Below are positions 36,133 to 62,334 of a DNA stretch of 64,000 nt, piece after piece (the stretch's first letter is position 1; every line of letters starts with the position of its first letter). This DNA is from a virus. Lineage: Duplodnaviria; Caudoviricetes. The position numbers and the translations under genes were made by a program. The stretch is taken from IMG/VR virus record IMGVR_UViG_3300021255_002777, positions 1 through 64,000 of that record; one strand, given 5' to 3'. The notes under the pieces were generated by a model that was not told the origin of the DNA, ran no database searches, and worked only from the letters and a program-made list of their open reading frames with translations.

Positions 36133-39100
36133 TTATATAAAATACGTTACTATAATGTCGTGTAAAATATGTCTGTACTTACTGAGTTCTGGAGTCAGCT
36201 CGAGTTTAATGTGGCACCATGTGTCACGAACACGATCACGTGTTTGTACCCAGTTGCCTTCAGCATCTTGCTCTTTAGCCCTCGGCATAGTGGTGTGCCA
36301 TACCTTGAACTTCTTGCGCAGATTAACAGGTTTTGCTGGATTGTCAAGCTGCGGTGTATTGTTGTCAGGAGCATCACCATTGACTGCATTGAGTTCCATT
36401 TCAAAGCGTTGATAATGGTCATTGCCACTGAGATTGTCAAAAGTCACAAACGGTTTATAATCCCAACCATCATTGCGTTCCCAAGCATCAGCTCGCCATT
36501 CAAGGTTGTCGAATATCTTATCTGTGCCATAGTCGTTGCCTTGATTGTTACTGTTGCAGATAATCTCTACACTTGCTGAGTATTGCTTATTGTAGATGAA
36601 GCAGTGCTTGTTGATATTCTTTCTATGCAACCAGATGTGGTCAGTATACAACTTACCATTGTACAGATTGATGATTGATTCAGGCGTACTGCGATCAGGA
36701 GCAACAGTGAATACTGTATCATTTATTGCAAACATCGCTGTAGTGTTCTGATAATCATAGAAACTGGTAAACTCACCTGTCATTGTATCAAAGCACAAGC
36801 AAGTATCATTCCCGGTAAGGAAAAGTTCACCAGTCGTTTTATCGGAATGCATGAACAGTCCTTGCCATTCACCTGGATGCCATATTATACCAAGGTCACT
36901 TCGGTTTATAAACCAAGTGTACATTCCTTTAGTAGTCGATACGGGTTGAATGCCGTCTGCCAACACGTTCATACTGTTTGTTCTTGCATCAACCCAATAG
37001 ATGCCTGTTGGTTGAACAGCAATACTCCACTTATTCTGACATCCAACTTCCGTGGTGTAGTAACGCAGTCCTTGCATTCTTCCGCTGTTAGCAAGCTCAA
37101 ACGGAAGCCCATCTGCTGCTTGCATTTGAGATGTTTCATTAAACAGTATCTGAGCAATGCCACTATCCTGGAAGGCTACTAACTGCGTATCAAGTCTGAC
37201 TATACGGTTAAGTGAACCTTTATTGCCATCACAGTTATACGTAGAAGCAAGTGTCAGTCTTGTCCACTCATCACGGAGTGCGCCAGCAACTTTGTTCAGT
37301 GTCCAAGTAAAGCTGTATTCAAACACATCCAACTGTACTTTCTTTCTATTGATAGTGTGATAAGTAAAGAAGTTATCTTGCTGAGAATACACACGGTTCA
37401 GTTGGTTAAAGTTTGTTGGTCTGACATGATTGTTGTCACTCAGCCCGCGGTTCTTATCATACCTACCATCAATATTGATATGCGTTTCGGTCATGAAGGA
37501 CACAATGTCGATTACCTTGTTTTGGTCTTCTTCTGTAAACGGATAAGTCCTTAACGCGTCATATCTTTGGTAGTAGGTATCGCCAGCACTCCATTCAAGA
37601 GTTGCTGCATTGTCTGACTTAAGATACACAGCCTCGCCAGCAGGGAGCCACAGGTTCTGCTCAATAGCTTCTTCCGTAGTTCCACCAAATCTGTTGACAA
37701 CGGTATCTCTATACAGTTGCCCCAGGTAAAGATAGCCACACAGGTTGTCTACATAATTGTCAAGTGTAATCTGACCGCTGAAGAACTTAGTATAATTAAA
37801 ACTACAACTGCCGTAGCTATAAGTTGATAATGTGACTTCCCCAGCATCGAATACATCATTTGAGTTGAACAGGTCGACAGCCTTGAATTTATCAGCACTT
37901 TTGTCCCAGAATGGGTAGCCAGTATTTACCGAGGAATGATTGTATTGCACGTATCTGTCAAGACAACTCTGTACTTTATCATTGCCCTCTTTTATATAAT
38001 CAAGTGCAACAACAATGTGATTACCAGACTTGTACTTGATAGGCACAGATGACATGGTTCTGTCAGCACCTTTCTTAAGGTCAGGAAGTTCAACCATCAA
38101 AGATATGCCTGTACCCGCAATATAGGAACTCATTGCTGATCCGTTGATTGTGCTTGCTGCACTAAGCGGTATGTATGGCGTAGAGAAAGCATACTTATTA
38201 GGATAGTCATCTTCACCATGTTGTATCGAATGTTGCGCATACGGAATGAAGGTAACCATCTTAGGATATCCGCCATAGCGTGTAAGCGGATACTTGAATG
38301 CATCAGTGACTGCAGTCTCGCTGTCACCGTTAACATCAGTGACAAATCCGCTTATTGGCGTTATCAACTTATCGACACTGCCGAAGTAGTGAAGAGAGCC
38401 AAGTTCACTGTTATCAGGCTCAGTTATGTTGGTAAGAGATACTTGCTGTTCATCAAGTACAGTCTTTGCTTTTACACTGATGTCATTAGCAACACTGAGA
38501 TTCTTAATGTAGCAAGTCCTCCAACTGTAGTGCAGGTTCGCAAGAACTTTGCTTTTAAGTTCTGCTGATATATAGTTATCACCAGTGTTGTTCTTGGATT
38601 CTTTCTTGTCTTCCTTTGTGTCAGTTGGATACGTCTTCCTCGAACCAATACTGTCATTGTTCAATGAGCCTTGACATTGCCACGGGTATACAGCAAACCC
38701 GACTGGAGTTGCAGCATCGTTCTTATATGACTTTACATCCTCAACGCTGTTCCACGAGATGTCATCAAACCATAACGGTGCATTGATAAGTGATTTCCAA
38801 CCTTGTCCAACATCAGTCATCTTCGATCCGACTATCTCGGAAGCATACAAGCCAGGAGCTATAACCATACCATTGTTCTCTTCTGTATAGAACTTGTTAG
38901 GTGGAGTACTGGTCATAATGTCATAGCTGGAAATAAATGAATTGATGGGTACAAGTCCAACAATACGCATCTTACAATCATCCAACTTGGTTGCCTGCAA
39001 AGCATCGTCGAAGTCTATATCCGCAGAGTTCATTGTGAATATACTCTGGTCAACGTAGAAGAAGTCTGGCACAGTGCTTGTAAACTTCTTACGCAGTTCA

Positions 39101-41712
39101 TCGGATGAGCCTGTATACGGGAACGTCAACGAATACTTCTGATTCTGTGTTCCTTGACGTTGCACACTTCTGAAGTTTGGTCTGCGGTTATACATTGTGG
39201 GCAACTCACCATTCCTCTGCTGGCTGTCACCAAGCGGATGATTATGTCGGAACTCTGCCCATGAGCCAAACCTGGTGAACTCATCAAAATCAAATCTTGA
39301 TTGGTGAGTACTTGCATCGTAAGACACAAACAGTCTCGGGTCTATCGCTATTGATGCAAGCATCTTGCCTGAGTCCATTCCTCCGTAAAAGTTGCCTGTG
39401 CCATTATCAAATTCAGGTGATGGGATTGTGTAGCCGTTTGTTGTATCCCAGATGTAGTTCCCATAAGCATCCTTGTTACTGGCACTCAATCCATCTAATG
39501 TGAGTGATGTTAAATCAATCGGAGAGAATGGTCTAAGGAACCATGAACTCTGTGCAAATGGCGCATTACTTGCCCTATCCTTCACGTTATACACAGTAGG
39601 ATTAAGCAGACCGCTAGTATAGATGTTGCGCTCCCAAGGTTTAGGGTATACAACAACAGGGCGCACCTTCCTGTATCCTTCTTTACGTAGTTTAGTGACT
39701 ACATTGGTGTTGAGGCTGAATGTGGCATGTACAGTGTTTAACATACCGCTCTGAAATGTAGGAAATACATCGGAGTTCGTGTAATCCCCAAGCCACCATA
39801 CATCACTCCACTTTCCTGTTTTATCTTGCGCTTGGAATCCGAACCTGTACTCCTCACCACGTTGGAATGATGTGATGTTGTATGAATCAGACTTTAACTG
39901 ATTCTCGTGGCTGTAGTATCCTGAGAACTTATCAGAGGATATATCAGATTTGTGAAGTACGAATTGTACAGACTCGTCTTGCTGACCAAACGGTATTGTG
40001 TTCTCCAGAACATCACGCAGATTGTGGAATTGCTGCTTCAGGTTACCAAGAAACAATGTGTTGCTCTTCTGTTCGAGTGTGTTCGGATAAACACTGATAC
40101 CACCAAGATACAACAACTCATTGGGGTCAACAACTTCGCCAGTAGTGTTGGTGTCTGTGAACACTATCGGCGGGTAAGTCCCGTCTGCGTTGGCAGTCGG
40201 TACAGGTATATCAGCAACCCTACGTACTGCTACTTCTGCGTCAAATGAAGTGTGTACTATGTGGTATAGCCTGATGTAGTCAAACCGACCATCAGGTTCA
40301 TACTTCTTTATTGTGAGCGTAAAGGAGTTTGCACAGTTCTCACCAGGAGCACCACCACGGTCATCTGGCGAGGAGTAGTGAATAGGACTAATCCATGCGA
40401 TGTTGCTTTCTGCACCATAACGTTTCATGTAAGTGAAAGCCCACTGCACAGTACCGCTAGGGAACATTCCGCCTGTGCTGTTACGCTCAATGGTTACACG
40501 TTCTTGCAGATGCAGGATAGGAACAGAGTCAAACAGAAGATTAGATGTCCACGGTTTATCACCGTTCTTGTCTGCAATGTTCGCATAACGCATCGGATGG
40601 ATACCGTCAACCCAGTATATCTTTTTTATCTTCTCGTTTTCGAAGTATACAGTACTTTCAATGGGATACTCAGTACTGAATCCAAGATTGCCACGGAAGT
40701 ATTCAAACACGTTGGCAATAATATCATTGTTACCTTCGACAACGCGATTACTCTTCTCAGCTGTGATTAGGTAGATGTGGTCACAAACCTTGTCTTGCTT
40801 ATCCTCATCGTAGTCACAGATTACTGTGTTATCATCTGGGTCAGGAGTCGGATCAGGTGTCGGTGTTTCGCCACCGTCATCTTCTATAGAAGGAACGTGG
40901 ATATTTACATTAATATTTGCACCAATAAGCGAACTTGGAACGTTGTCACTGGTTTGTACAATGTCGGTAGAGGATAGTGCAACTGAACATGAGTAATCAA
41001 TAGGATTAGTCCTGTCGACACCATCAGGACGATGAAACCTGATATAGAATACGTATGGCTGCCGAGAGGATACAGCATAAGCATCTTTTCTGGATATTTT
41101 CAGGTTATACAAATCCTGCGCAGAATTAGGCTTCCTGATAGAGAAATTATCTGTACCAGAACCAAGCGTGATATCTATCGATTCATCATCGCCATTGTAG
41201 TTATTCGGGTCATAAGCCACACCGAAGAACTTTGTTATGGCTATAGTTATTAAAAGTTCTGTATTTGCTGTGGTAGTACTGAGTGATATATTACCGGCAA
41301 AGTAAGACTGAGTCACTCCATTGATGAGACAATCAAGCGAGCATAGCACTGGATGCAGAGTATTAGGCTTAGCGAATTTAGGCATGTGATCTTCGCTGGT
41401 CTCGTCAACCTTAATCAGTTCATCAGGGTTGATGTTGGTAATATAGTCAACGCCCTCTTCCTCATGTGTGAACAGCACGGCGGTTTCATTAATTGTGTTA
41501 AACCCGATTACCGTACCTTTAATGTTTACTATGTTTTGATCTTTGTCGCGTGCCTTCAGCGTACCCTCTTCATTGACAAGTGCCGTTAATGTGTTTGTGT
41601 CACTGTGCCTCAGCCTCATGTTCTGAAGATGGTAAGCGTGCTGTTTGTCAGCAGAAGAATCTGCAACATCCTTTTGCATTCCTAATATTTTATATAACGC
41701 TTGTTGTCTCAT
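36133..41712 (-). CDS. Tail muzzle / stabilization protein (beta-propeller type; gp44-like)
   Basis: N-terminal KI.GMQKD...AY..QNMRL, IYWVDGI..MRY.NI, FQRGEEYRFG.Q.QD..GKWS, WSAGDTYYQRYD.LRTYP and a C-terminal R.RDTW motif; synteny. Confidence 0.8.
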   Translation of the reverse strand: MRQQALYKILGMQKDVADSSADKQHAYHLQNMRLRHSDTNTLTALVNEEGTLKARDKDQNIVNIKGTVIGFNTINETAVLFTHEEEGVDYITNINPDELIKVDETSEDHMPKFAKPNTLHPVLCSLDCLINGVTQSYFAGNISLSTTTANTELLITIAITKFFGVAYDPNNYNGDDESIDITLGSGTDNFSIRKPNSAQDLYNLKISRKDAYAVSSRQPYVFYIRFHRPDGVDRTNPIDYSCSVALSSTDIVQTSDNVPSSLIGANINVNIHVPSIEDDGGETPTPDPTPDPDDNTVICDYDEDKQDKVCDHIYLITAEKSNRVVEGNNDIIANVFEYFRGNLGFSTEYPIESTVYFENEKIKKIYWVDGIHPMRYANIADKNGDKPWTSNLLFDSVPILHLQERVTIERNSTGGMFPSGTVQWAFTYMKRYGAESNIAWISPIHYSSPDDRGGAPGENCANSFTLTIKKYEPDGRFDYIRLYHIVHTSFDAEVAVRRVADIPVPTANADGTYPPIVFTDTNTTGEVVDPNELLYLGGISVYPNTLEQKSNTLFLGNLKQQFHNLRDVLENTIPFGQQDESVQFVLHKSDISSDKFSGYYSHENQLKSDSYNITSFQRGEEYRFGFQAQDKTGKWSDVWWLGDYTNSDVFPTFQSGMLNTVHATFSLNTNVVTKLRKEGYRKVRPVVVYPKPWERNIYTSGLLNPTVYNVKDRASNAPFAQSSWFLRPFSPIDLTSLTLDGLSASNKDAYGNYIWDTTNGYTIPSPEFDNGTGNFYGGMDSGKMLASIAIDPRLFVSYDASTHQSRFDFDEFTRFGSWAEFRHNHPLGDSQQRNGELPTMYNRRPNFRSVQRQGTQNQKYSLTFPYTGSSDELRKKFTSTVPDFFYVDQSIFTMNSADIDFDDALQATKLDDCKMRIVGLVPINSFISSYDIMTSTPPNKFYTEENNGMVIAPGLYASEIVGSKMTDVGQGWKSLINAPLWFDDISWNSVEDVKSYKNDAATPVGFAVYPWQCQGSLNNDSIGSRKTYPTDTKEDKKESKNNTGDNYISAELKSKVLANLHYSWRTCYIKNLSVANDISVKAKTVLDEQQVSLTNITEPDNSELGSLHYFGSVDKLITPISGFVTDVNGDSETAVTDAFKYPLTRYGGYPKMVTFIPYAQHSIQHGEDDYPNKYAFSTPYIPLSAASTINGSAMSSYIAGTGISLMVELPDLKKGADRTMSSVPIKYKSGNHIVVALDYIKEGNDKVQSCLDRYVQYNHSSVNTGYPFWDKSADKFKAVDLFNSNDVFDAGEVTLSTYSYGSCSFNYTKFFSGQITLDNYVDNLCGYLYLGQLYRDTVVNRFGGTTEEAIEQNLWLPAGEAVYLKSDNAATLEWSAGDTYYQRYDALRTYPFTEEDQNKVIDIVSFMTETHINIDGRYDKNRGLSDNNHVRPTNFNQLNRVYSQQDNFFTYHTINRKKVQLDVFEYSFTWTLNKVAGALRDEWTRLTLASTYNCDGNKGSLNRIVRLDTQLVAFQDSGIAQILFNETSQMQAADGLPFELANSGRMQGLRYYTTEVGCQNKWSIAVQPTGIYWVDARTNSMNVLADGIQPVSTTKGMYTWFINRSDLGIIWHPGEWQGLFMHSDKTTGELFLTGNDTCLCFDTMTGEFTSFYDYQNTTAMFAINDTVFTVAPDRSTPESIINLYNGKLYTDHIWLHRKNINKHCFIYNKQYSASVEIICNSNNQGNDYGTDKIFDNLEWRADAWERNDGWDYKPFVTFDNLSGNDHYQRFEMELNAVNGDAPDNNTPQLDNPAKPVNLRKKFKVWHTTMPRAKEQDAEGNWVQTRDRVRDTWCHIKLELTPELSKYRHILHDIIVTYFI

Positions 41713-41721
41713 TATTGTTTA

Positions 41722-42291
41722 TTAACTTGCCATAAGATTAAGTTTCTCTGGATAACCCGCCGTGATGTCATAGGCTTCGATGTCCTCCACATTGTCCATA
41801 GCCATCACCGCAGCCTTGTGTGCCTCGGTGACATTAAGAGCCTCCGCAGCATAGACCTCAAGTGCGTTAAGCATCTGCAACCATGCGCTTGTCGGGAAAG
41901 TGAACTGCTGACCTCCGAACCACTTTGTCACTGTCTCAGCACCAGTGGCTTGGTAAGCCTCTATGCTTATTCGTAACTGCTGCCTTGTAGGTGCATCCAA
42001 CCACATGGGGACACCACCAAGATAGAACTCATTGACGTTCTCACTTTCATCATATATGTCAATATCTGTAATCTTTCTATTCTTGGCTCGTTCCACCAGT
42101 TCTTCTTGTGTAGGTTCAATAACAGGTTCTTCCCACACGAGCCAACCAGCGGCAAGCATCATCTCCTCAGTTGGGTTGATTGTCGTTACAACTTCAACCT
42201 TGCCATCAACTTCTTCAGTGGTCTTCAGTACATTTCCAGTAAAGAAAACCTCTTCTCCGTTTATGATTTTATAATACTGTTTCATTATCAA
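41722..42291 (-). CDS. DUF4376-like tail fibre assembly/chaperone protein
   Basis: AKNRKITDIDIYDESENVNEFYL.G..MWLD...R...LE.YA....NVTEAHK..V...YD.T.GYPEKL. Confidence 0.75.
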   Translation of the reverse strand: MIMKQYYKIINGEEVFFTGNVLKTTEEVDGKVEVVTTINPTEEMMLAAGWLVWEEPVIEPTQEELVERAKNRKITDIDIYDESENVNEFYLGGVPMWLDAPTRQQLRISIEAYQATGAETVTKWFGGQQFTFPTSAWLQMLNALEVYAAEALNVTEAHKAAVMAMDNVEDIEAYDITAGYPEKLNLMAS

Positions 42292-43187
42292 CTAGGTATT
42301 GCTTGGATTCTACTTGCGTATGAACTCCAATTAGTCGCTGTTTTGTATGCATCAACGCTTTCCACTGGTACATAAATCGGTGCGTTGTTTGTATTGTTAA
42401 ACGCGTTTGACCCTAATGTCGGTGGTGTTGTTGCCTGTACTGTGATTTCTGTTAAGGTTTTCATATAACTGAAAGTGCCAGTTCCGATGCTAGTTACTCC
42501 ACTCGGGATAACGAGTGTAGTCAACACATTAGAACTAGAAGAAGAATTGTAACCACAATAATAAAAAGCATAACTACCGATTTTTGTAAGTGTGGATGGG
42601 AGTGTTACCTTACTTACATAGTAAGTCATTTCAAAAGCATCAAGTCCTATTTCTGTGATACCTTCAGGTATGTCTATAACCGCTCCTTTGGTGCTTGATA
42701 AAAAACAACAATAAGAAAAACAAGCATTCGGAATTTTGCCAATCCCTGATGGGATATTAAATGTCTTTAGAGACTTTTGGTACTGGAAAGCATTTGTCCC
42801 CAAACTTCTCAAAGAACTTGGTAACTGTACCGAAACAATGTTAGCTTCCCTTTCATTGGCTACAAGTTCAGCAGAAAACGCACGTTTTCCTATAGTAGTG
42901 ACTCCTTCTGGAATGACCACATTTTGTATACGTGTACGAGCAAATGCGTAATCACCGATGGTTGTTACTGTGCTTGGTATATCAAATTCGGTAAACATTC
43001 GGTTATCCACGAAGGCATATGGAGCAATCTGTGTTACTCCCGATGGCCAGTTAACTTTCTTGATATAATTCGCTCCAAAGTTTAAATCTGAGCCATTAGG
43101 CCACTTTACCTCAAATATGCACTGGTGATCACTATCACCACTGCTGGTGGTTGAAGTTAGTATTCTACGTCTAGTTAATTCACTCAT
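42288..43187 (-). CDS. BspA-type leucine-rich-repeat protein (putative receptor-binding or adhesion tip)
   Basis: Repeated IPxxVTxIGxxAF units and the C-terminal cap TPPTLGSNAF...IYVP.ESVDAYKTATNWSSYASRIQAI. N-terminus MSELTRRRIL. Confidence 0.85.
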   Translation of the reverse strand: MSELTRRRILTSTTSSGDSDHQCIFEVKWPNGSDLNFGANYIKKVNWPSGVTQIAPYAFVDNRMFTEFDIPSTVTTIGDYAFARTRIQNVVIPEGVTTIGKRAFSAELVANEREANIVSVQLPSSLRSLGTNAFQYQKSLKTFNIPSGIGKIPNACFSYCCFLSSTKGAVIDIPEGITEIGLDAFEMTYYVSKVTLPSTLTKIGSYAFYYCGYNSSSSSNVLTTLVIPSGVTSIGTGTFSYMKTLTEITVQATTPPTLGSNAFNNTNNAPIYVPVESVDAYKTATNWSSYASRIQAIPS

Positions 43188-43189
43188 AA

Positions 43190-46100
43190 TTAGTAATCTG
43201 TCATACTGCCAGTAACATCAATAAGATGAAACTCGCGTTGATAAATATTAAATTCATATGTATGATTCGCCAAAATTGGAGGATTATTGTCAGCAATGAG
43301 GACATTTGCGCGAATACTCAACGGCATATTATCCATCCCAGCAATAAATCTTCCTGATATTGGGACTTGGTTCATAAGATTCATATCTTGGGTACAAGTA
43401 AGATTTCTGGTCGAAACGGTTCCTTTTATAAGGAAACGTGGTAGACCACCATAACCTGTCAAGTCCCAAAATACACAAGGTGTGTACAGCGCGTGTACTT
43501 CTGTTAAGATACCACTCTGAGGTGCATAATAACCATAACCGTTATAAAAATAACATGTCTCATAAGTGTATTCAGAACTAGCCCATTTATCAACATTCTC
43601 AGAGTTGTTAAGCATGGTTATAACCTGATTGAATAATTTCTCTTCATGATTAACTGTTTCATGGTACACATGCCTTAAAGAAATAGAATATAACCAAGCT
43701 GTCTCATCAAGGCTCCCTAATGTGGTGTTTGGTACTTTCTTATAATGAACCAAATTCATTGTAAAATAAATATGGGTACCGAAAATTTGGTCGATTGAGT
43801 AAACTTGGGTACTGTCAAAAGTGAAATCACAAACTCTATCAACATCAAAACTTGTCATAGTTGCATTTGTGTATCTCATTGAGCACAAATATACCTTATT
43901 ATTCGCCAAGTCAAAAAATACAGGTTTTCCATATTCTTCATTTATATCACCAAACCTGTCTGCCCATATTTTGCCAAGTTCTGTATTGGTCAGCGAATAT
44001 TCAGCTCCACGAGTATAGATTTCAGTTAAATAACCCGCAAGCGCTGTTGGTCTACCGCCTGGGTAGTCACTACAAGAGTCCACAAGAAACCAACTAGCAT
44101 ATGAGCCGTAGGGTAATTCAGGGTCACCGCTGCGCATTGTAGTATAATTTAACCAATCTTCATCTTCAAAGCGCTTCACCTTGTAAGTGTCAATATCTCC
44201 AGTACCTACAATACTTTCTCCGTTGATGGTTTTGAATTGAGGACCCACAGGTATCCATTCTTGGTCCCAGCGATACAGGTTGCCGGTCTGCTTGTCGATG
44301 TAGATGATGCCATAAACGGGTTCACCGAGGATAACTTCTCTTCCTACTCCATAAAGCAGGCTTAGCCTGGGTTTGCCGGTCACAGTATTCTGTACAACGA
44401 TGATATCCCCTAATTCTGCATCTTTGGTGGACAACGTGGGGTCTATGCTGTAGAGCAGCACACGGGGCCATTGGTTGGGGGTAAGAACCGATTGACCTAT
44501 AAGGTCCGCCTTATCACTTACATCAGTTATAACCGTACCCAAATTAATAATACCACTTGTACCCTTGCTTGCACCATTCATGGTTATGCCCGTGATAGTG
44601 CCAGTATTTGAGGTGAAGCCACTGTCATTAATCAACTGGCTAACCTTCGTAGGAATAGTAGGTGTTCCATCTAAGTCAGAATATCTATTTGTAACAGCAG
44701 CGGGCCCAACAGTACTTACAGGAGTAAGGTAGTTGTACATAACAACATAGAGAATGGTTCCTGATGCCACACTTCCATTTAATACACTACCACTAAATGT
44801 TCCATCTGATGGTATAGTAATTTGTCTAACATCATTAATTTCTCCATTTGTCGTACTTAAATCATAAGTTATACTGCCAAAATTAAATCTAAACGTATAA
44901 GATTGCGTAGCAGATTTTGCATAAATTGATACAAGAAATGTTCCAGATGTAAGATTAGGTATACAACCTGAGTTACCTTTCACAGTAAAATTACCACTAC
45001 CATTTACATCATTACGATACAATTTACCAGCAACTGAACCTACTTTAATATCATTAGGTATATGTGTATTACTGGGCAATGCACCTACATCACTAGCACT
45101 AAGAGTTAGGTTACTTGACAATGCCTTGCCATTAACAGTGCGGGTTGATGGAACATAATTGGCGAAGTCTTCTGCGAATGCAATAGTATGTTCGTTCCCG
45201 TCATCAGGAAAGTTCATTATTACCTTTGAACCGAACCAATAATCATCAGTGAAGGCTAAACTCAATATAGTATTTTCATCGCCTTCTAAATCAACAGCAA
45301 TCAATCCATCAAGTGTGGAGTCATAAACTTCTAATTTAGAAACTCCAAATTTCTCGTTAAGATCACCGTTCTTATTAGCCTTGTCCTCCAACGCGCTATA
45401 AATAGCACCACCTTGAACTGGGTTAGTACCATTCTGCGTGATAGTTGAATCAACAGTAACAGCAGTTGGGATAACAGGCTTATCTGTCAAGTCATTGTAA
45501 CTGCCACTTGTCGCAACAGCAGCAAGGTCTGCTTGTTGTATGGCAGTAGCACCCTTAGATGCCCCACTGCGGATAGTCGCCAAATCACTGATAGCATCCT
45601 GCTTGTCTTGCCAACTGTCTATAGCAATCAAATGGTAGTAAGTATTGTATATAAATGTCGCAGTGTCACCAGCCTTAATCACTCCTGACGTAATTGCAGC
45701 ATCCTTATTATAGATAGCCTTTGCACCCTTTGAGTTGATATTAAGAGTAGCATTTGCAGGAACGTCATAAAGGAACTTAACACTTACAATACCATTAGCG
45801 GTCAAAGCATAACTTCCCAAGGTGGCAGTAATGGTAGCGGAAGCAGCAGAGTTATTTTGTACAGCGTAACCTTGGCCTAGCGCAACATTGCTGTATGTGC
45901 TGTTATTATCTACACTGTGCCCCATAAACACCCAATAAGTGCCGTCATACACATAGTGCAAATACCTGTTGGCGTAACCAGCATAGGCACTCTTAGCGGA
46001 TGCCAATACCGCATTGTTGTACCATATTCTGATTGCACCAGTGCCATTAACATTCAACTGAGGTGTCGTGCTTGTAGAGGAATTGGTCGCCGTGAACTTG

Positions 46101-46282
46101 ACGACGATCTCAGTGCCTGCATACGGCTTATCATTCTCATCAACGGGAAAATCCTCCACCGTGCATACCTTTGGATTGGTTGCAGCAGCCGTAGAGCAAG
46201 TGCCTACATACACTCTTTGCCCTTTAGCAGGCTCAAGTTCGTAGGTATCGTTGTTGATGGATATGTTTCTCGCAATCGCCAT
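43190..46282 (-). CDS. Mosaic tail fibre protein (1030 aa)
   Basis: Two GTCSTAA...VKF...LNVNG.GA-type modules, the fibre repeats DSTITQNGTNPVQ, SYNDLTDKP and VSQLINDSGF, and a C-terminal HTYEFNI domain. Confidence 0.75.
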   Translation of the reverse strand: MAIARNISINNDTYELEPAKGQRVYVGTCSTAAATNPKVCTVEDFPVDENDKPYAGTEIVVKFTATNSSTSTTPQLNVNGTGAIRIWYNNAVLASAKSAYAGYANRYLHYVYDGTYWVFMGHSVDNNSTYSNVALGQGYAVQNNSAASATITATLGSYALTANGIVSVKFLYDVPANATLNINSKGAKAIYNKDAAITSGVIKAGDTATFIYNTYYHLIAIDSWQDKQDAISDLATIRSGASKGATAIQQADLAAVATSGSYNDLTDKPVIPTAVTVDSTITQNGTNPVQGGAIYSALEDKANKNGDLNEKFGVSKLEVYDSTLDGLIAVDLEGDENTILSLAFTDDYWFGSKVIMNFPDDGNEHTIAFAEDFANYVPSTRTVNGKALSSNLTLSASDVGALPSNTHIPNDIKVGSVAGKLYRNDVNGSGNFTVKGNSGCIPNLTSGTFLVSIYAKSATQSYTFRFNFGSITYDLSTTNGEINDVRQITIPSDGTFSGSVLNGSVASGTILYVVMYNYLTPVSTVGPAAVTNRYSDLDGTPTIPTKVSQLINDSGFTSNTGTITGITMNGASKGTSGIINLGTVITDVSDKADLIGQSVLTPNQWPRVLLYSIDPTLSTKDAELGDIIVVQNTVTGKPRLSLLYGVGREVILGEPVYGIIYIDKQTGNLYRWDQEWIPVGPQFKTINGESIVGTGDIDTYKVKRFEDEDWLNYTTMRSGDPELPYGSYASWFLVDSCSDYPGGRPTALAGYLTEIYTRGAEYSLTNTELGKIWADRFGDINEEYGKPVFFDLANNKVYLCSMRYTNATMTSFDVDRVCDFTFDSTQVYSIDQIFGTHIYFTMNLVHYKKVPNTTLGSLDETAWLYSISLRHVYHETVNHEEKLFNQVITMLNNSENVDKWASSEYTYETCYFYNGYGYYAPQSGILTEVHALYTPCVFWDLTGYGGLPRFLIKGTVSTRNLTCTQDMNLMNQVPISGRFIAGMDNMPLSIRANVLIADNNPPILANHTYEFNIYQREFHLIDVTGSMTDY

Positions 46283-46284
46283 AG

Positions 46285-47718
46285 TTATTCAGTCGGGAAG
46301 GTGAACGAAATGGTCTCAGTTGTCGAGTCATAGCCGTCATACAAGTCTGCCAAGGCACTGTACACACCGCCACTCTTGACGGGGTTGGCACTTGTCTTTG
46401 TAGGAACATTGTCAAAGGTCAAGGCGTTTTGCTTGTTGTTCCAAGTTGACTTCTCGGTATCAGTGACAAGCCTATGTGTTGCATCATCAGTGAGGTCTGC
46501 CAACTCTTGTGGTATGCTTTGATATACATCTTCGATGGCTGTATCATAGTCCGCTTTCTTAACATACACAGGGAGTTGAACTAGACCAAAATGTGATTGT
46601 TCGTCGAATTGGATTCCAGTGACAACGGTAAGATTGACATTACCGTCCGTTGGCGATTGAGGAGTCCCGCTATTAAGACTAACGGTTTGCACCGAAGAAG
46701 CGCCCTTCCCCGCTCCACTGCGGATGGTATCAAGATCGTTAATCGCAGATTGCTTGTTGCTCCATGCAGTCTTGTTGGCATCTGTAATACTTGCGGCTGG
46801 ATGAGTGCTATCAAGCACAGTTGCGCTCTTGCCTGTTTCGCTTGTCAATGTGATGGTAGTCTTACCTGCATTGGTGCCAGTACCCTTTGACACTGACATT
46901 TCGCTCTTGTTAGCCTTGCCGCTAATATCCTGATGCTCAACCACAACGGTCTGCGATGTGCCAGACTTGAGTTGAATGGTCTTCTTCGTCGTATCGCCAG
47001 CGACAGCAGTTACAGTCAACTCGCTCTTGTTAGCCTTGTTATCCAATGCGCCATTGATAACCTTGTTCTGAACAGGGTTGGTTGACGTGCTGCTCAGTGC
47101 CTCATCAACAGTACCGCTGACTGCCTCGATAGCATCAATGCGGTCATTGATACCGAGCAACTGGTTGGCTAGCGTGGGGTCTGTCTTGTCAATGCCGTTC
47201 AAGAAATTCACAACCTCATTGAATGAGTCGATTGCTGCTGACACATCGCCAGTGCCTACCAAAGCAGCCAAGTCGTCAGCAACCGCGTCAACCTGGCTCT
47301 TTAGGGCAACTTCTCCGCTTGCGCCGACAGGAAGGGTGACCTCTGTTTTAGCGGTTCCGAGGCTTCCGTCAGCAGTGCTGCCGAATACGAACACTGGTTT
47401 GCCATTGACCTTTTTCACGATGATATAAGTCGAGTCAGCAATGCCATCCTCTATATTATCTATGCCAATCATGGGTGTAGCAACACCCTCTCTTACATAG
47501 ATTTGTTTCGCTAACAAACCTTCGAGGTTCATATATGAAAGGTCGAAGGAACCGAGTTCCTGCGTTTTGGCGGCGTCCTTGTAAAACACCAGCCTTGTCT
47601 GCAAATCCTCGTCATTATTGACCCTAATCACACTAGCATAGGCAAAGCCAGCCCTCGCTATAGCATCCTTGATGTCATAACCAGCATTGTTGATTTTAAT
47701 TTTACTAATGTCTGCCAT
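46285..47718 (-). CDS. Tail fibre protein (477 aa)
   Basis: IDSFNEVVNFLNGI, two KANKSE repeats, DEALSSTSTNPVQNKVI, and ELADLTDDATHRLVTDTEKSTWN. Confidence 0.7.
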   Translation of the reverse strand: MADISKIKINNAGYDIKDAIARAGFAYASVIRVNNDEDLQTRLVFYKDAAKTQELGSFDLSYMNLEGLLAKQIYVREGVATPMIGIDNIEDGIADSTYIIVKKVNGKPVFVFGSTADGSLGTAKTEVTLPVGASGEVALKSQVDAVADDLAALVGTGDVSAAIDSFNEVVNFLNGIDKTDPTLANQLLGINDRIDAIEAVSGTVDEALSSTSTNPVQNKVINGALDNKANKSELTVTAVAGDTTKKTIQLKSGTSQTVVVEHQDISGKANKSEMSVSKGTGTNAGKTTITLTSETGKSATVLDSTHPAASITDANKTAWSNKQSAINDLDTIRSGAGKGASSVQTVSLNSGTPQSPTDGNVNLTVVTGIQFDEQSHFGLVQLPVYVKKADYDTAIEDVYQSIPQELADLTDDATHRLVTDTEKSTWNNKQNALTFDNVPTKTSANPVKSGGVYSALADLYDGYDSTTETISFTFPTE

Positions 47719-47755
47719 CGTTTTCTGTTTTTATTGTTTATTGTTAATATTGTTG

Positions 47756-48580
47756 TTACCACTCGATATTAAGCGTCTCGCCGCTGACATAGGACTCCTT
47801 GCCCATCACATAATCGTGGAATCCAGTCACCACCTTGTTGGCGATGGCTCGCTCACTGGTGATGTCCCAATTCTGGTCAACAAGCATCTCGATGCCTTTT
47901 GTGACACTGAAGGATACCGTGTCTCCATCTGTAAGGAGAAATGTGACGGTTGTGGAGGTGCTGTCTTCTTCAGTCGTTATTTCAGCAATACCACGGTCAG
48001 CATTTCCGCTTGCAAAAAATACAGCGGCATCCAAATACCTGATCTCTCCAGGGATGTGTTTTATATCATCAGTTACAATATACAGCCTTTGGTTTTCTTT
48101 AAAGCGATACTGATTCCCTTCACTGTCTTTACATACGACAGCCATCGAATAGACACCAACAGGTATTGAGCCTGAATCCTGCACAACGACATTGTTTCTG
48201 TTGTGGGATATTATAAGCTTTATCTGGGATTCACCGTTGTCAAGTACCAGTGATATCGGATATGAATCTGAAGGAATGAAATCAGCATCTGCCGTTGACA
48301 ACACACCGTCATCTATGGTTATTGTGCGTATGACAAGAGGAATAATGAATCCGAACGGGTTACCTTGGCCGTACACCAGCTTTGATGTCTTGTCCGGAAG
48401 GTAAGGTATTGCGTCAGTAACTTTCTCTATTGTCTCACGCAAATCCTTTGACAAGTCACTGGCAGGAATGCCGTCTGAAGGCTTGCTGTATTTGTTTACA
48501 ACAAGCTCTCTGGCAACCCTGTCCTTGATGTCATAGGTAACCCCTTTGCGTTCTATTTTGCTGATTTCCTGCATAATCAA
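47756..48580 (-). CDS. Fibre base/adaptor protein with a BppU-like Ig-fold domain
   Basis: YSKPSDGIPASDL motif, a beta-rich middle (VVVQDSGSIPVGVYSMAV) and a C-terminal ETLNIEW. Confidence 0.55.
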   Translation of the reverse strand: MIMQEISKIERKGVTYDIKDRVARELVVNKYSKPSDGIPASDLSKDLRETIEKVTDAIPYLPDKTSKLVYGQGNPFGFIIPLVIRTITIDDGVLSTADADFIPSDSYPISLVLDNGESQIKLIISHNRNNVVVQDSGSIPVGVYSMAVVCKDSEGNQYRFKENQRLYIVTDDIKHIPGEIRYLDAAVFFASGNADRGIAEITTEEDSTSTTVTFLLTDGDTVSFSVTKGIEMLVDQNWDITSERAIANKVVTGFHDYVMGKESYVSGETLNIEW

Positions 48581-49467
48581 TTCTCTTTATCATCATCCCA
48601 TACGAGGGTCTCGTTCTCAACAGTAGGATCATCACCACCTTCATTGATCTCGATATTCTGAACAACTTCAACAGTGCTCGTAACTTTATCACCACTTTCT
48701 GGCTTAGCGTCTTCAGGCTTAATTGTTGCAGGAATAAGATCGAGTACAGCAGGAACATCTCCGCCATTCTTTGTAGCTTCAAGGTTACCAAGAGCCTCAA
48801 ATTGACGGTCAAATTCATGCATTCTGGGAATAAGTTGATTCCACATCCTTGTAATGCTTTCCATCTCACTCAGTGACGGCATCTTGAAGTGTGCACCGAG
48901 TCTTCCAGCAGCATATGCATACCTTTTCTCAGCATTTTGGAGCACTGCCGGTTGCAACTTGCCTTGGTCAAACAGAATTGTAAACACTTCTCTTTTTATA
49001 TAAGCATCAAGTGCAAGCATATAGATGGGGTCATCTATTAGCATAGGCATTCCAGTTTCATCAACAGCAACTGAGAGATATGCTATGCTAATCATTCCGT
49101 GTTCAAAAGATGTGAACAAAGTTCTTCCCTGCGTCTTAAAACTTAACTCGTGGAATCTTCTTCTTTCCCCAAAGTAAGGATGATTCCGCTGCGGGTTAAA
49201 TACATCAGTCATACTGCGCAGGCTAATACCGCTTTTGCAGTCCTTCACAAGTTCAATACTTATAAGGTCGCAAGGAAGTTCACAACGGAATGCATCAACT
49301 TTTAGAGTTACCTCTTTATGCTGATACATTTGAGGAAGCCCGAATATTCCTATAAAGTCTATAGTGTATTGCACCACCTGCTCAAGATTAACATCCTGAA
49401 GCAATGGGTGCCTTAATGTTCTTGATAAGGCTTCACGTATATTGATATATCTAACTTCTTTGTTCAT
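48577..49467 (-). CDS. Tail ring protein (R1/gp43-like) with a C-terminal extension
   Basis: YINIREALSR.LRHPLLQDV.LE..VQY.IDFI.IFG.P; G.PM.ID...Y..AL..YIK. About 60 aa of extra, low-complexity C-terminus. Confidence 0.7.
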   Translation of the reverse strand: MNKEVRYINIREALSRTLRHPLLQDVNLEQVVQYTIDFIGIFGLPQMYQHKEVTLKVDAFRCELPCDLISIELVKDCKSGISLRSMTDVFNPQRNHPYFGERRRFHELSFKTQGRTLFTSFEHGMISIAYLSVAVDETGMPMLIDDPIYMLALDAYIKREVFTILFDQGKLQPAVLQNAEKRYAYAAGRLGAHFKMPSLSEMESITRMWNQLIPRMHEFDRQFEALGNLEATKNGGDVPAVLDLIPATIKPEDAKPESGDKVTSTVEVVQNIEINEGGDDPTVENETLVWDDDKEN

Positions 49468-50730: not shown

Positions 50731-51120
50731 TCAGACAACATCAAACATTGTATCACCACGGTGCAGTGAACCGTCTTCTTTCTTACGCGGATTATCTACA
50801 GATGAGCGCTGTCTGTACTGTTGCGACTGCCTGAGATTGTGTGAATAAGAGCCATCACGGGGTTTACTAAACCTGAAGTGTGTTGTGCGTCCAATAATGC
50901 AGCCATTGTTATATAAGCAATTCAGGGCACGATTAAACGCGGATAAGCCAGTGTCGTCTAAGTGTTCACTGAGCTGCCCGTTAAACACTGCCTCAGTGAT
51001 GAACAAATAAATAAGTAGACCTCGCACACCTTCTTTCTTATAGTATCCAGCCTCTTCAAGTACATGAAAATATCTGGAAATGCTACTATACAAATTATCA
51101 GTATGTTCCATGACATCCAC
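50731..51120 (-). CDS. Tail hub protein B-like
   Basis: Y.SI.RYF.VL...GY......LLIYLFI...LNCLY..GCII pattern; synteny after the auxiliary capsid and hub A genes. Confidence 0.55.
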   Translation of the reverse strand: MDVMEHTDNLYSSISRYFHVLEEAGYYKKEGVRGLLIYLFITEAVFNGQLSEHLDDTGLSAFNRALNCLYNNGCIIGRTTHFRFSKPRDGSYSHNLRQSQQYRQRSSVDNPRKKEDGSLHRGDTMFDVV

Positions 51121-52099
51121 ATCCTTTACCGCCCATCATACTTGGACCGAATGATGAGCCTGAATTAAGATAATTGTTCCAGTAGTACAATGCTTGGCAG
51201 ACATCACCGCATCGTAATGCAAAATCAAAACCGTAGTACTTGAGAATAAAGTCTTCAAATGCGGATGCACTACTGTCGCTGCAGGATTCACCGAGTGCAT
51301 TTGCGTACCTTACAGCAGAATCGTAGATAGGTTTGCTGTTATAAACAACACCGGTAATAGTATTCTCATCCCAGCCACAGCCCATAGTTGCAATCTCAAC
51401 AGCCTTACCGTCAACACGTGCTTCAGCTGTCACGACAAATAATGAACTGCCAATGTCCGCATTATCAAGATTTATTAGATCAGTACTATTCAGACATAAA
51501 CGTTTGTGCTGAATCGGTTCTGGACTCTTATATTGCACACTATTGCGGGAAGGATCGTTAATAATATCTGTATATAGATTGAACAACTCAATGAACTCAG
51601 TATATTCATTATCAGTGAACAGACTCTTAGAACTTGTTATGAGGGAATTAATGTAATCAATGATTACTTTAACATCGAATATATTCTTTTGCCCGTCGTT
51701 ATTAACATCATACCTGTCTTCCATAGGTATTCGGCCTAGGATTGCATCAGTAACCAGGATATAATCGTGAAGGTCTACCTTGCCATCAAGATTGACATCA
51801 TACTTATTAAGCTCGTCTTTGTCTGGACGTAACTTTTTCATGAACATGTTGAGCCTATTGATCTGCTCAACATCACGTTCAGTAATCTTGCCGTCACCAT
51901 CCATATCAACGTATGTCAGACCTGAACCGCCTCGGTAAACAACCACACCGTTACCAGTTCCGTTACAGTAGTCTTCAGCAAGATTAACTGTTACTTTGTC
52001 AATATAACACTGCGCATATTCGTCAAAGTTGTCTATTTCAACATCAATAACGATATGACTGTTGTCATCAGTAACGTATAGTTCATTAAAATGTAGCAT
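51098..52099 (-). CDS. Tail hub protein A-like with an inserted dockerin-like domain
   Basis: MLHFNELYVT.D...I.IDV...YIDKV N-terminus and C-terminal F.DFILKYYGF..AL.CGD..QA..YW...GCGC. The internal DxDGDGKI, DVNLDGKVD and DVNNDGQKN loops are dockerin-like. Confidence 0.7.
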   Translation of the reverse strand: MLHFNELYVTDDNSHIVIDVEIDNFDEYAQCYIDKVTVNLAEDYCNGTGNGVVVYRGGSGLTYVDMDGDGKITERDVEQINRLNMFMKKLRPDKDELNKYDVNLDGKVDLHDYILVTDAILGRIPMEDRYDVNNDGQKNIFDVKVIIDYINSLITSSKSLFTDNEYTEFIELFNLYTDIINDPSRNSVQYKSPEPIQHKRLCLNSTDLINLDNADIGSSLFVVTAEARVDGKAVEIATMGCGWDENTITGVVYNSKPIYDSAVRYANALGESCSDSSASAFEDFILKYYGFDFALRCGDVCQALYYWNNYLNSGSSFGPSMMGGKGCGCHGTY

Positions 52100-58856: not shown

Positions 58857-58868
58857 ATGTCATTTTAT

Positions 58869-59207: not shown

Positions 59208-59212
59208 TGTGG

Positions 59213-61111: not shown

Positions 61112-61112
61112 A

Positions 61113-61880: not shown

Positions 61881-61887
61881 AATATAA

Positions 61888-62334
61888 TTAGTTTAAAATG
61901 TTCAGTATTTGTTCATTAGTAGCTGCAGTCGGGAAAGGATACTTACCGTAGATAATGTCAATCAACCCGCCTAAAGCACCGGCTACAGTTGTTGATGATA
62001 TAGCGCTGTTACTGAAGGTAATGGCACTTGCCGTTAATGGAGCTCCTTCATAAGTAGTCTTAGTCGAAGCTAACGAGTACAATTCGTTAAGCGCACTGAT
62101 TAGATCAGTTGCCTCCAACCCTTCAACGTCAACATCAGTAGACAACACATCAACAGAGTTAGCAACGTATGCTGCCAACATAGGTAAATCAACTCTTACA
62201 TTCTTGCCGTCAGACACGACAACAACTGTAGAGTCGTCGTCAATATATTCCGCCTTCGGGAACTCACTGTCACGAACAGAAATCCGCGACAGGTACCTGG
62301 CTATATCCTGATAATTTTGCTTTGTTAGAACCAT
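61888..62334 (-). CDS. Fibre base protein
   Basis: LSRISVRDSEFP...VVVSDGKNVRV N-terminus; ATDLISALNELY, TTVAGALGGL; C-terminal AATNEQILNIL. Confidence 0.5.
   Translation of the reverse strand: MVLTKQNYQDIARYLSRISVRDSEFPKAEYIDDDSTVVVVSDGKNVRVDLPMLAAYVANSVDVLSTDVDVEGLEATDLISALNELYSLASTKTTYEGAPLTASAITFSNSAISSTTVAGALGGLIDIIYGKYPFPTAATNEQILNILN

What the first reader, a model, noticed from the sequence alone, without database searches (positions are those of the whole stretch)
41722..49467. Candidate daisy-chained fibre anchored on an extended tail ring protein
Seen in sequence: five fibre-type genes sit between the R1-like ring gene and the muzzle gene. The ring protein carries a roughly 60-aa tail ending in VENETLVW. 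The next protein starts EISKIERKGVTYDIKD and ends YVSGETLNIEW. The next starts DISKIKINNAGYDIKD and ends YDSTTETISFTF. The next starts IARNISINNDTYEL. So an '..ET[L/I]x[W/F/I]' C-terminus is followed by an 'Ix[K/N]Ixxxx.Y[D/E][I/L]' N-terminus three times in a row. Inference: these are complementary beta-strand plug and socket motifs that link separately encoded segments (ring, 274 aa, 477 aa, 1030 aa, LRR tip) into one extendable appendage. The ring protein would have gained the first plug. In PhiCrAss001, as I recall, the ring and muzzle genes are adjacent and fibres attach via the tail hub, so this would be a second, interchangeable attachment system.
Basis: partly seen in the sequence, partly recalled or inferred. 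Interest (0 to 1): 0.78.

Follow-up and report, generated by a model that had tools for sequence, protein, structure and literature searches.

The report
Tail-ring tether anchoring a chained fibre
In this gut crAss-like phage the first tail-ring protein has a floppy tail ending in a short conserved peptide, and it and the next three fibre genes carry matching end motifs that recur together in many relatives. This suggests, but does not prove, a snap-together way of hanging an extra, swappable host-recognition fibre on the tail.

Summary
R1 (PF24228) has a 62-aa extension that AlphaFold2 models as disordered. It ends in a conserved peptide, D-D/G-P-x-V/I-x-x-E-T/V-L-V/I-W.

Three genes follow, each with an N-terminal I-S-K-I...Y-D-I-K-D hairpin. 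The first two also end in an E-T-L/I-x-hydrophobic strand.

- All six fetched loci whose R1 has this tail, including one with only 42% R1 identity and TAG=Q recoding, have a socket-type fibre gene starting 2-8 nt after R1.
- 49 loci with short R1 go straight to the muzzle gene. Five have other inserts there, none with the socket.
- Every socket gene examined follows a plug-ending gene. The plug pattern occurs in 1.1% of ORF C-termini.
- Codons vary synonymously, so selection acts on the protein.

The socket opens over 600 protein clusters and has no Pfam family or solved structure.

Corrections: the fifth gene is a DUF4376 chaperone-like protein. The LRR tip joins through a different link.

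My verdict is a probable modular docking system, a new variant of known fibre-attachment schemes. First-stage readers' notes of this scan, none of them checked, flag this stretch, and one flags a different R1-tail link in another genome.

The parts
48766..49467 (-). R1 tail-ring protein, folded core (aa 1-234)
   Evidence: PF24228 CrAss_Ring_1, E 1.6e-62. The AF2 core has pLDDT 70-90. Foldseek matches crAss001 R1 chains 7QOG_B and 7QOI_FS, E 4e-20, 48-49% identity.
48580..48765 (-). R1 C-terminal extension (aa 235-296): variable acidic linker plus terminal plug
   Evidence: It is absent from about 110 of the 120 nearest R1 clusters, which are 227-243 aa long. AF2 pLDDT is below 50 from aa 221 to the end. 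Linker length and sequence vary between relatives.
48592..48633 (-). Conserved plug peptide of R1 (aa 279-292, DDPTVENETLVWDD)
   Evidence: D279, P281, E286, L288, W290 and D292 are invariant in six extended R1s that share 63-67% identity. The peptide is nearly identical in L081, whose R1 is only 42% identical overall. Codons differ synonymously between loci.
47756..48574 (-). F1, adaptor fibre (272 aa from ATG 48574): N-module aa 1-69, Ig-like body aa 70-225, floppy C-terminus ending in the plug GETLNIEW
   Evidence: AF2 gives a hairpin at E6-9/E12-15, a helix at 19-29, a beta-sandwich body with pLDDT 70-86, and pLDDT below 30 after aa 226. Foldseek hits are Ig, Fab and Siglec-like, with weak TM-scores. 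The body aa 70-272 is 55% identical to the 222-aa protein of L077, which lacks the N-module.
48521..48571 (-). Socket 1 (F1 aa 2-18, QEISKIERKGVTYDIKD)
   Evidence: The same F1-type socket (E-I-S-x-I-x-R-K/H-G-V) follows every tailed R1.
47759..47782 (-). Plug 2 (F1 aa 265-272)
   Evidence: An identical plug precedes F2 homologues in L077 and L078 on adaptors with a different N-terminus. A DETLNIE plug precedes a D-I-S-K-I-K socket in L079.
46285..47718 (-). F2, middle fibre (477 aa): socket at 47665-47715, plug TETISFTFPTE at 46288-46320
   Evidence: ORF and motifs. No Pfam or PDB relative. Homologues carry the same two ends.
43190..46282 (-). F3, distal fibre (1030 aa): socket variant at 46229-46279, no ETL plug, C-terminal about 60-aa 'TYEFNI' domain at 43193-43372
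   Evidence: The N-domain is orthologous to the L002 395-aa and L079 547-aa proteins. The C-terminal domain is 36% identical to that of the 391-aa paralogue at 59213-60388, E 1e-7.
42288..43187 (-). LRR tip protein (299 aa) with an N-terminal Arg-rich leader and no I-S-K-I socket
   Evidence: PF13306 LRR_5, E 2.2e-46. An Arg-rich leader follows a TYE[FY]xI-type C-terminal domain in four adjacent pairs, two in the window and two in L079.
41722..42291 (-). DUF4376-like protein (187 aa from ATG 42285), a probable fibre chaperone and not a chain segment
   Evidence: PF14301 E 3e-4, 21.7 bits, below the 25-bit cut-off. It is 53% identical to the paralogue at 58308-58856. DUF4376 proteins are listed as the tail-fibre chaperones of Alteromonas phages V22 and A5 (PMC10579305; PMC7289586 found but not read).
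36133..41712 (-). Muzzle protein, downstream boundary of the inserted cluster
   Evidence: PF25731, E 1.4e-234.
50731..52099 (-). THB and THA tail-hub genes: the canonical fibre-docking collar is retained
   Evidence: PF25711 E 6e-11 and PF25724 E 3e-23.
61888..62334 (-). 148-aa protein with a crAss001 gp22-like hub-docking N-terminus (first attachment system)
   Evidence: BLASTP aligns aa 1-47 with gp22 aa 1-48, 35% identity, E 9e-7.

Best explanation
This crassvirus has a second fibre-attachment route in addition to the usual THA/THB hub collar.

Proposed mechanism (inferred throughout):
- The portal-proximal ring protein R1 carries a roughly 45-aa disordered tether. It ends in a short amphipathic beta-strand peptide, the 'plug' (E-T-L-V-W).
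- The plug docks into the N-terminal beta-hairpin 'socket' (I-S-K-I...Y-D-I-K-D) of the adaptor F1.
- F1 ends in its own plug, which is cognate to the socket of F2. The plug of F2 is cognate to the socket of F3.
- F3 ends in a different domain (TYEFNI type), which holds the LRR tip protein through the tip's Arg-rich leader.
- The DUF4376 protein is an assembly chaperone.

Gene order would then equal assembly order: R1 > F1 > F2 > F3 > LRR tip.

Shown here:
- The motifs exist.
- They pair strictly at adjacent genes.
- The R1 tail co-occurs with an F1-type socket gene.
- Selection acts at the protein level.
- The tether is modelled as disordered.

Not shown: the physical contact, the strand-addition geometry, the 3:3 stoichiometry and the serial order.
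For: 1. R1 tails and F1-type socket genes co-occur in 6 of 6 fetched loci: the window, L001, L002, L074, L075 and L081. By contrast, 49 short-R1 loci go directly to the muzzle gene, and 5 have other inserts that lack sockets.
2. The terminal 14 aa of the tail are conserved while the linker varies in length and sequence. The peptide is nearly identical in an R1 that is only 42% identical overall.
3. On the tree of R1 cores, tailed R1s are scattered among short ones: 4 changes on the best tree and at least 2 forced by starred branches. Tail and cassette are therefore gained or lost together.
4. Every socket gene examined follows a plug-ending gene. The plug pattern has a background of 1.1% of ORF C-termini.
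5. E-T-L is written with many synonymous codons, and intergenic gaps range from -8 to +37 nt. Conservation therefore acts on the protein, not on a DNA junction.
6. Modularity. In L077 and L078 the same F1 body, plug, F2 and F3 occur, but the adaptor lacks the N-terminal socket module. The socket module is what adapts this cassette to the R1 tail.
7. Socket subtypes keep their position in the chain across phages (F1 type; D-I-S-K-I-K type; I-x-R-x-I-x-I-x-N-x-T-Y-E-L type), each after a matching plug subtype.
8. AF2 monomer models fit the scheme. The R1 tail has pLDDT below 50. The F1 N-terminus is a hairpin followed by a helix. The last 47 aa of F1 are unstructured.
9. The socket sits at residue 1 in about 140 of the top 150 hits, out of 632 clusters at E <= 1e-3. 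That fits an attachment end.
10. R1 is a structural homologue of podovirus adaptor proteins such as T7 gp11. From established knowledge, gp11 helps form the fibre-docking site in T7.
Against:
- The AF2 models are of low confidence (mean pLDDT 65 and 56) and are monomers.
- It is not known whether the R1 C-terminus faces the outside of the barrel.
- The F1 body looks Ig-like and not like a classic trimeric fibre, so 3:3 stoichiometry is a guess. Twelve R1 tails do not obviously map onto trimers.
- Many of the links counted are homologous, so the number of independent observations is smaller than the raw count.
- Most socket proteins elsewhere have unknown partners. In L080 the upstream C-terminus is only loosely plug-like.
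- One protein, P0325, has the socket internally with no obvious plug before it.
Confidence: 0.6

Rival explanations
1. Branched or parallel attachment. The plug-socket contact is real but not ordered. Any socket fibre can bind any plug, whether an R1 tail or a fibre end, giving a bush of fibres on twelve tethers and not one linear chain.
For: All plugs share E-T-L-x-hydrophobic, and all sockets share I-x-x-I...Y-x-I-K-D. There are twelve R1 copies per virion (PMC10172136). Branched receptor-binding systems are common in other phages (established knowledge).
Against: Plug and socket subtypes are position-specific and conserved across phages. Terminal fibres lack plugs, whereas intermediates have them.
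Confidence: 0.2
2. No inter-protein docking. The N-motif is a folding or trimerisation nucleus. The C-motif is a common fibre ending. Both were inherited together through tandem duplication of fibre genes. The R1 tail is a recombination scar, a captured 3' end of a donor gene left when the cassette was inserted.
For: F1, F2 and F3 N-termini are paralogous. The cassette is clearly mobile, with junction DNA identical to L077 and L078. No contact has been demonstrated.
Against: A neutral scar would not keep 6 invariant residues in 14 aa across R1s of 42-67% identity with synonymous codon turnover, while the adjacent linker diverges freely. R1 has only the plug and terminal fibres have only the socket, so the two motifs are not simply co-inherited ends.
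Confidence: 0.12
3. The conserved gene junctions are DNA or RNA elements, such as recombination boundary sequences or translational-coupling signals. The amino-acid motifs are by-products.
For: The motifs straddle stop/start junctions, and most gaps are 2-3 nt.
Against: Codons for the conserved residues differ widely. E-T-L alone is written in at least eight ways. Gaps range from -8 to +37 nt, and no nucleotide consensus is visible.
Confidence: 0.03

Closest known systems
PhiCrAss001 tail hub docking (THA2-THB trimer holding gp22 residues 1-26; Bayfield et al. 2023, PMC10172136)
   Same: Same virus order and same tail barrel. A short N-terminal segment of a fibre is held by a barrel-associated protein, and further fibres hang on the first. 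This window keeps THA, THB and a gp22-like N-terminus.
   Different: Here the proposed anchor is a flexible C-terminal tether of R1 itself and not the hub collar. The fibre N-termini (I-S-K-I hairpin) are unrelated to the gp22 N-terminus. crAss001 R1 has no tail, and its R1 gene abuts the muzzle gene.
T4 long tail fibre (gp34-gp35-gp36-gp37), serial end-to-end assembly of separately encoded segments (established knowledge)
   Same: Separately encoded segments are joined head to tail. The genes are adjacent and lie in assembly order. A chaperone gene is nearby.
   Different: There is no sequence relation: none of the three fibre proteins hit any Pfam family, T4 fibre families included. The T4 joints are not known to use this motif pair. 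The T4 fibre docks on the baseplate, not on a ring tether.
Anchor-and-branch receptor-binding systems of Klebsiella KP32-type, E. coli G7C and CBA120 phages (established knowledge; recent work listed)
   Same: A short conserved N-terminal peptide on one RBP docks onto another RBP. The cassettes are modular and exchangeable.
   Different: Those systems dock onto a folded T4gp10-like domain. Here the partner would be a short C-terminal strand. No such domain was detected by Pfam.
T7 gp11 adaptor / gp12 nozzle interface binding the fibre gp17 N-terminus (established knowledge)
   Same: R1 shares the podovirus adaptor fold (Foldseek hits to T7, SU10, N4 and KP32 adaptors), so a fibre-anchoring role has a precedent in its homologues.
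   Different: In T7 the fibre binds the folded adaptor-nozzle surface. Here a disordered tail added to the adaptor homologue would do the job.
Donor-strand complementation in chaperone-usher pili (established knowledge)
   Same: A terminal beta-strand of one subunit completes a beta-structure of the next, so a polymer is built from separate gene products.
   Different: This is an analogy only. There is no homology, the polarity and fold are unknown, and nothing was tested here.

Membership tests
CrAss_Ring_1 (PF24228), crassvirus tail ring protein R1 | Profile match above the curated cut-off | tested here: met
   E 1.6e-62, 211.8 bits against a cut-off of 27.
CrAss_Ring_1 (PF24228), crassvirus tail ring protein R1 | Fold of crAss001 gp43 | tested here: met
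   Foldseek 7QOG_B and 7QOI_FS, E 4e-20, 48-49% identity, for the core only.
CrAss_Ring_1 (PF24228), crassvirus tail ring protein R1 | Gene placed after R2 and the small 159-aa gene, upstream of the muzzle gene | tested here: met
   The order is kept, but five genes are inserted before the muzzle gene.
crAss001-type hub-docked fibre (gp22 N-terminus) | N-terminal about 26-48 aa similar to gp22 | tested here: not met
   The F1, F2 and F3 N-termini show no likeness to gp22. Only the 148-aa protein at 61888-62334 matches.
T4-type long tail fibre proteins | Sequence homology to gp34-gp37 families | tested here: not met
   Pfam scans of F1-F3 returned no family at E <= 0.01. No PDB relative was found for F2 or F3.
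T4-type long tail fibre proteins | Physical head-to-tail assembly of the segments | not testable with these tools
This needs cryo-EM or biochemistry.
Anchor-branch RBP systems (T4gp10-like docking domain) | T4gp10-like domain on the anchoring protein | tested here: not met
   No Pfam family was detected on F1-F3, and R1 matched only CrAss_Ring_1. This is a sequence-level test only.
DUF4376 tail-fibre chaperones (PF14301) | Profile match above the curated cut-off | tested here: inconclusive
   21.7 bits against a cut-off of 25, E 3e-4, covering profile positions 2-105 of 106. The L077 homologue scores 20 bits.
DUF4376 tail-fibre chaperones (PF14301) | Gene placed directly after the distal fibre or tip gene | tested here: met
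   True for both window cassettes and for L077, L078 and L079.
BspA-type LRR (PF13306) | Profile match above the cut-off | tested here: met
   E 2.2e-46, three stretches.

The most novel reading that the evidence does not exclude
Crassvirus and other gut-phage fibres may be assembled by a small, portable 'grammar' of cognate terminal links. At least three types appear in these loci:
- a beta-strand plug (E-T-L-x-hydrophobic) with an N-terminal hairpin socket;
- a helical pair (T-N/D-x-D/Q-I... with L-x-x-x-G-L-x-x-F/W);
- a TYEFNI-type end domain with an Arg-rich leader.

Under this reading, gene order spells out the architecture of the appendage. Any virion protein, here ring protein R1 with at least two different plug types in different lineages, can become a new anchor simply by acquiring a tether and a plug. 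The hairpin socket alone heads more than 600 protein clusters, so this would be a widespread and undescribed assembly code.
Probability: 0.4. Interest if true: 0.82.

Novelty: new variant of a known kind. Interest (0 to 1): 0.68.

Why it matters
Crassviruses are the most abundant phages of the human gut, yet how they recognise hosts and change host range is largely unknown. Only one virion structure exists, and its fibres were poorly resolved.

If a ring protein can become a fibre anchor by gaining a tether and a 6-8 residue plug, and fibres snap together through cognate ends, several things follow:
- Fibre architecture could be read from gene order in uncultured phage genomes.
- It would explain how whole receptor-binding cassettes move between unrelated phages. 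Here the junction DNA of the cassette is identical to that of L077 and L078, whose phage type was not determined.
- It would give a direct handle for laboratory study of crassvirus host range.

It would also assign a role to an N-terminal motif that opens more than 600 protein clusters and has no Pfam family or solved structure.

Tried and rejected
- Complex prediction was set up with 3 copies of F1 aa 1-69 (alignment A4) and 3 copies of R1 aa 255-296 (alignment A3). No multimer test exists.
- Megablast of the cluster against the phage collection found no match.
- The search for related loci with R1 alone and with the F1 N-module in viral contigs found no relatives. The one metagenome scan gave a single locus, L081.
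- PDB sequence searches with F2, F3 and the socket profile gave nothing meaningful.
- PHROGs gave no functional names for F1-F3.
- Pfam and PHROGs could not say whether L077, L078 and L079 are crassviruses. The genome search does not hold those records.
- One context look-up (P0226) returned no DNA.
- I looked for a Rosetta-stone fusion of plug and socket in one chain. P0325 has an internal socket with no clear plug before it, and P0354 looks like a mis-called start.
- BLASTP could not confirm the similarity of the short Arg-rich leaders of the 299-aa and 112-aa tip proteins. That link rests on recurring adjacency only.
- I rejected the reading of the junction motifs as a DNA element.
- I rejected the fifth gene as a fibre segment.
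- The top hits of the socket profile include RCC1-like repeat proteins, which are false positives. The figure of 632 clusters is therefore an upper estimate.
Full report
CONTEXT

The window is part of an 82.7-kb IMG/VR virus record estimated to be 82% complete. On the minus strand it carries a crassvirus structural module, identified by Pfam. In order, it encodes:
- the major capsid protein;
- ring protein R3/4;
- the auxiliary capsid protein;
- THA, which carries a dockerin insert;
- THB;
- R2;
- a 159-aa gene;
- R1;
- five ORFs;
- the muzzle protein;
- cargo proteins 1 and 2.

In PhiCrAss001 the R1 gene (gp43, 236 aa) directly abuts the muzzle gene (gp44). Its fibres dock through gp22 residues 1-26 on twelve THA2-THB hubs.

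THE OBSERVATION

R1 (48577-49467, 296 aa) matches PF24228 only up to aa 234. The remaining 62 aa are acidic and of low complexity, and they end DDPTVENETLVWDDDKEN.

The next gene most likely starts at ATG 48574, 2 nt after the R1 stop.
- F1 (272 aa) begins with an I-S-K-I...Y-D-I-K-D motif and ends GETLNIEW.
- F2 (477 aa) begins with the same motif and ends TETISFTFPTE.
- F3 (1030 aa) begins with a variant of the motif, but ends in a different domain.

The quoted strings are therefore right apart from a few trailing residues.

The fourth gene is a BspA-type LRR protein without the N-motif. The fifth is DUF4376-like. DUF4376 proteins are listed as the tail-fibre chaperones of Alteromonas phages V22 and A5 (PMC10579305; PMC7289586 was found but not read). 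I therefore read the fifth gene as a chaperone and not as a fibre segment.

IS THE R1 TAIL SPECIAL?

Among the 120 nearest R1 clusters, almost all are 227-243 aa long and stop just after the Pfam domain. Six have extensions ending in the same peptide, at 63-67% identity to the window R1 for the four distinct ones.

In those six, the linker differs in length and sequence. D279, P281, E286, L288, W290 and D292 are invariant.

AlphaFold2 with the family alignment folds the core (pLDDT 70-90). Residues 221-296 stay below 50, with only two 3-residue strands at the plug. Foldseek confirms that the core is the crAss001 R1 fold (7QOG_B, E 4e-20) and, more distantly, the podovirus adaptor fold.

CO-OCCURRENCE SURVEY

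Every fetched locus with a tailed R1 has a gene starting 2-8 nt after the R1 stop whose product opens with the F1-type socket (E-I-S-x-I-x-R-K/H-G-V...K-D). These loci are:
- L001: one 674-aa fibre, then the muzzle gene.
- L002: five genes, then the muzzle gene.
- L074.
- L075.
- L081: a TAG=Q recoded crassvirus whose R1 is only 42% identical to the window's, yet whose tail ends in an almost identical 17 residues.

For comparison, 49 loci with a short R1 run straight into the muzzle gene.

Five short-R1 loci have something else in the gap, and none of these inserts has the socket:
- a roughly 215-aa gene of unidentified function in L016, L037 and L069;
- five small ORFs in L049;
- a 570-aa esterase-like protein in L076.

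On a tree of the R1 cores, the tailed forms are scattered among short ones (4 changes on the best tree, at least 2 forced by well-supported branches). Tail and cassette are therefore gained or lost together.

THE MOTIF PAIR IS GENERAL

In L002 the chain runs through these junctions:
- the R1 plug to the 145-aa protein;
- DTETLILF to the 388-aa protein;
- STETLSLTL... to the 395-aa protein;
- TTTTLTIS to the 595-aa LRR protein.

Each downstream protein opens with the socket.

In L077 and L078 an adaptor of 222-230 aa ends exactly like the window's F1 and precedes F2 and F3 homologues. It shares the F1 body (55% identity over F1 aa 70-272) but lacks the 69-aa N-module. The socket module is thus the piece that fits this cassette to an R1 tail.

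In the TAG-recoded L079, a 206-aa protein ending DETLNIE... precedes a D-I-S-K-I-K fibre ending AETLEIV.... That fibre in turn precedes an F3-type fibre.

A scan of all held loci found the plug pattern in 1.1% of 2126 ORF C-termini. It found the pattern in 11 of the 13 distinct ORFs upstream of socket genes. The two misses are artefacts whose true neighbours also carry plugs.

Codons for the conserved residues vary freely, and gaps between genes range from -8 to +37 nt. Selection therefore acts on the peptides, not on a DNA junction.

Socket subtypes keep their rank in the chain across phages, which favours ordered, cognate links.

BREADTH

A profile of the socket finds 632 clusters at E <= 1e-3 among 1.84 billion representatives. 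In about 140 of the best 150 the match starts at residue 1. A few RCC1-repeat proteins are false positives.

Only 6 of 110 full-length representatives also end in the plug. Most socket proteins are therefore terminal fibres and a minority are intermediates.

No Pfam family and no solved structure covers the socket.

STRUCTURE OF F1

The AF2 monomer model is weak (mean pLDDT 56). It shows:
- an N-terminal hairpin (strands at aa 6-9 and 12-15) followed by a helix;
- an Ig-like beta-sandwich body, pLDDT 70-86;
- an unstructured last 47 residues.

Foldseek hits are Ig, Fab and Siglec-like. This fits a floppy C-terminal plug, but it does not show binding.

WHAT COULD NOT BE DONE

I also could not establish whether the R1 C-terminus faces outward.

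INTERPRETATION

The best-supported reading (about 0.6) has four parts:
- The R1 tail is a flexible tether whose terminal strand docks the F1 socket.
- F1, F2 and F3 are joined by the same kind of link in gene order.
- F3 holds the LRR tip by a different link. A TYEFNI-type end domain precedes a protein with an Arg-rich leader in four adjacent pairs, two in the window and two in L079.
- The DUF4376 protein assists folding.

Because THA, THB and a gp22-like N-terminus are retained, this is an additional attachment route and not a replacement.

The rivals are:
- unordered, branched binding of sockets to any plug (0.2);
- no docking at all, with the motifs being inherited fibre ends and the R1 tail a recombination scar (0.12);
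- a nucleic-acid junction element (0.03).

The last two fit poorly with synonymous codon turnover, with a conserved plug next to a free-running linker, and with R1 having only a plug while terminal fibres have only a socket.

NOVELTY

Serial and branched fibre assemblies, and docking by short N-terminal peptides, are known from T4, from the Klebsiella/G7C/CBA120 systems and from the crAss001 hub.

My literature searches found no description of three things:
- a ring-protein tether used as an anchor;
- this plug/socket motif pair;
- any role for the widespread N-terminal hairpin.

I therefore class it as a new variant of a known kind.

EARLIER NOTES

First-stage readers' notes, none of them checked, flagged the same chain and a second chain in this genome. 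Another note (e1-5840811) describes an R1 extension with a different, helical link type in another genome. The R1 tails of L035 and L051, and the window's own upstream fibre cluster, look like that second type.

Noticed in passing
window 60401-62334 (-); L035 10001-12068; L051 10001-10852: A second link type, probably helical. The 148-aa and 255-aa proteins end in T-N/D-x-Q/D-I...I, and the next proteins start L-I-T-L-x-x-L-x-x-F/I-Y. Two other R1 lineages (L035, 280 aa; L051, 283 aa) carry tails ending in this second plug type. In L035 the next gene starts with an F-L-D-K-N-G-L-D-F-L-W motif. R1 tails thus seem to have evolved as anchors with two different link chemistries.
   Followed up: partly
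window 41722-43372 and 58308-59400 (-): Two paralogous terminal cassettes. Each has a fibre ending in a TYE[FY]xI-type domain (36% identity, E 1e-7), then a tip protein with an Arg-rich leader (LRR 299 aa or 112 aa), then a DUF4376 protein (53% identity). The same triplet occurs twice in L079.
   Followed up: partly
window 51098-52099 (-), aa 64-120: The tail hub protein A carries a dockerin type I insert (PF00404, E 3.7e-11). The THA of L076 has one too, and a 1173-aa fibre in L079 has a weak dockerin hit.
   Followed up: no
L077 9295-12990; L078 9273-11491 versus window 46148-47900: The 111 nt inspected at each of the F1>F2 and F2>F3 gene junctions are identical or nearly identical between the window and L077/L078, although the adaptor N-terminus and the surrounding genes differ. 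This points to recent exchange of the F1-body/F2/F3 cassette between different phage backgrounds.
   Followed up: partly
L076 3733-5445: A 570-aa esterase-like protein (weak BD-FAE hit) sits between a short R1 and the muzzle gene. Its N-terminus reads M-A-V-E-T-L-F-P, which resembles the plug motif but lies at the wrong end.
   Followed up: no
L081 3042-3998; L079 whole locus: Two relatives need TAG read as Gln to keep their structural genes open. The R1 of L081 also has a His-rich insert of about 60 aa in its beta-sandwich region.
   Followed up: partly
window 62346-63998 (-): An ORF that is open at the window's edge, possibly a beta-helix fibre (not tested), has a C-terminal stretch (...A-L-R-E-F-T-x-A-G-L-E-F-V-D-A-T-G) that matches the end of the 1666-aa fibre of L077.
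   Followed up: no
P0325 (367 aa), residues 132-150: A protein in which the hairpin socket is internal, preceded by a 130-aa domain and with no Met before it. It may be a natural fusion of an anchor with a socket fibre. It ends in the TYEFNI-type domain.
   Followed up: no
window 9349-23016 (+) and 23081-30559 (-): Two giant ORFs of 4555 aa and 2492 aa lie next to the cargo genes. I did not examine them.
   Followed up: no
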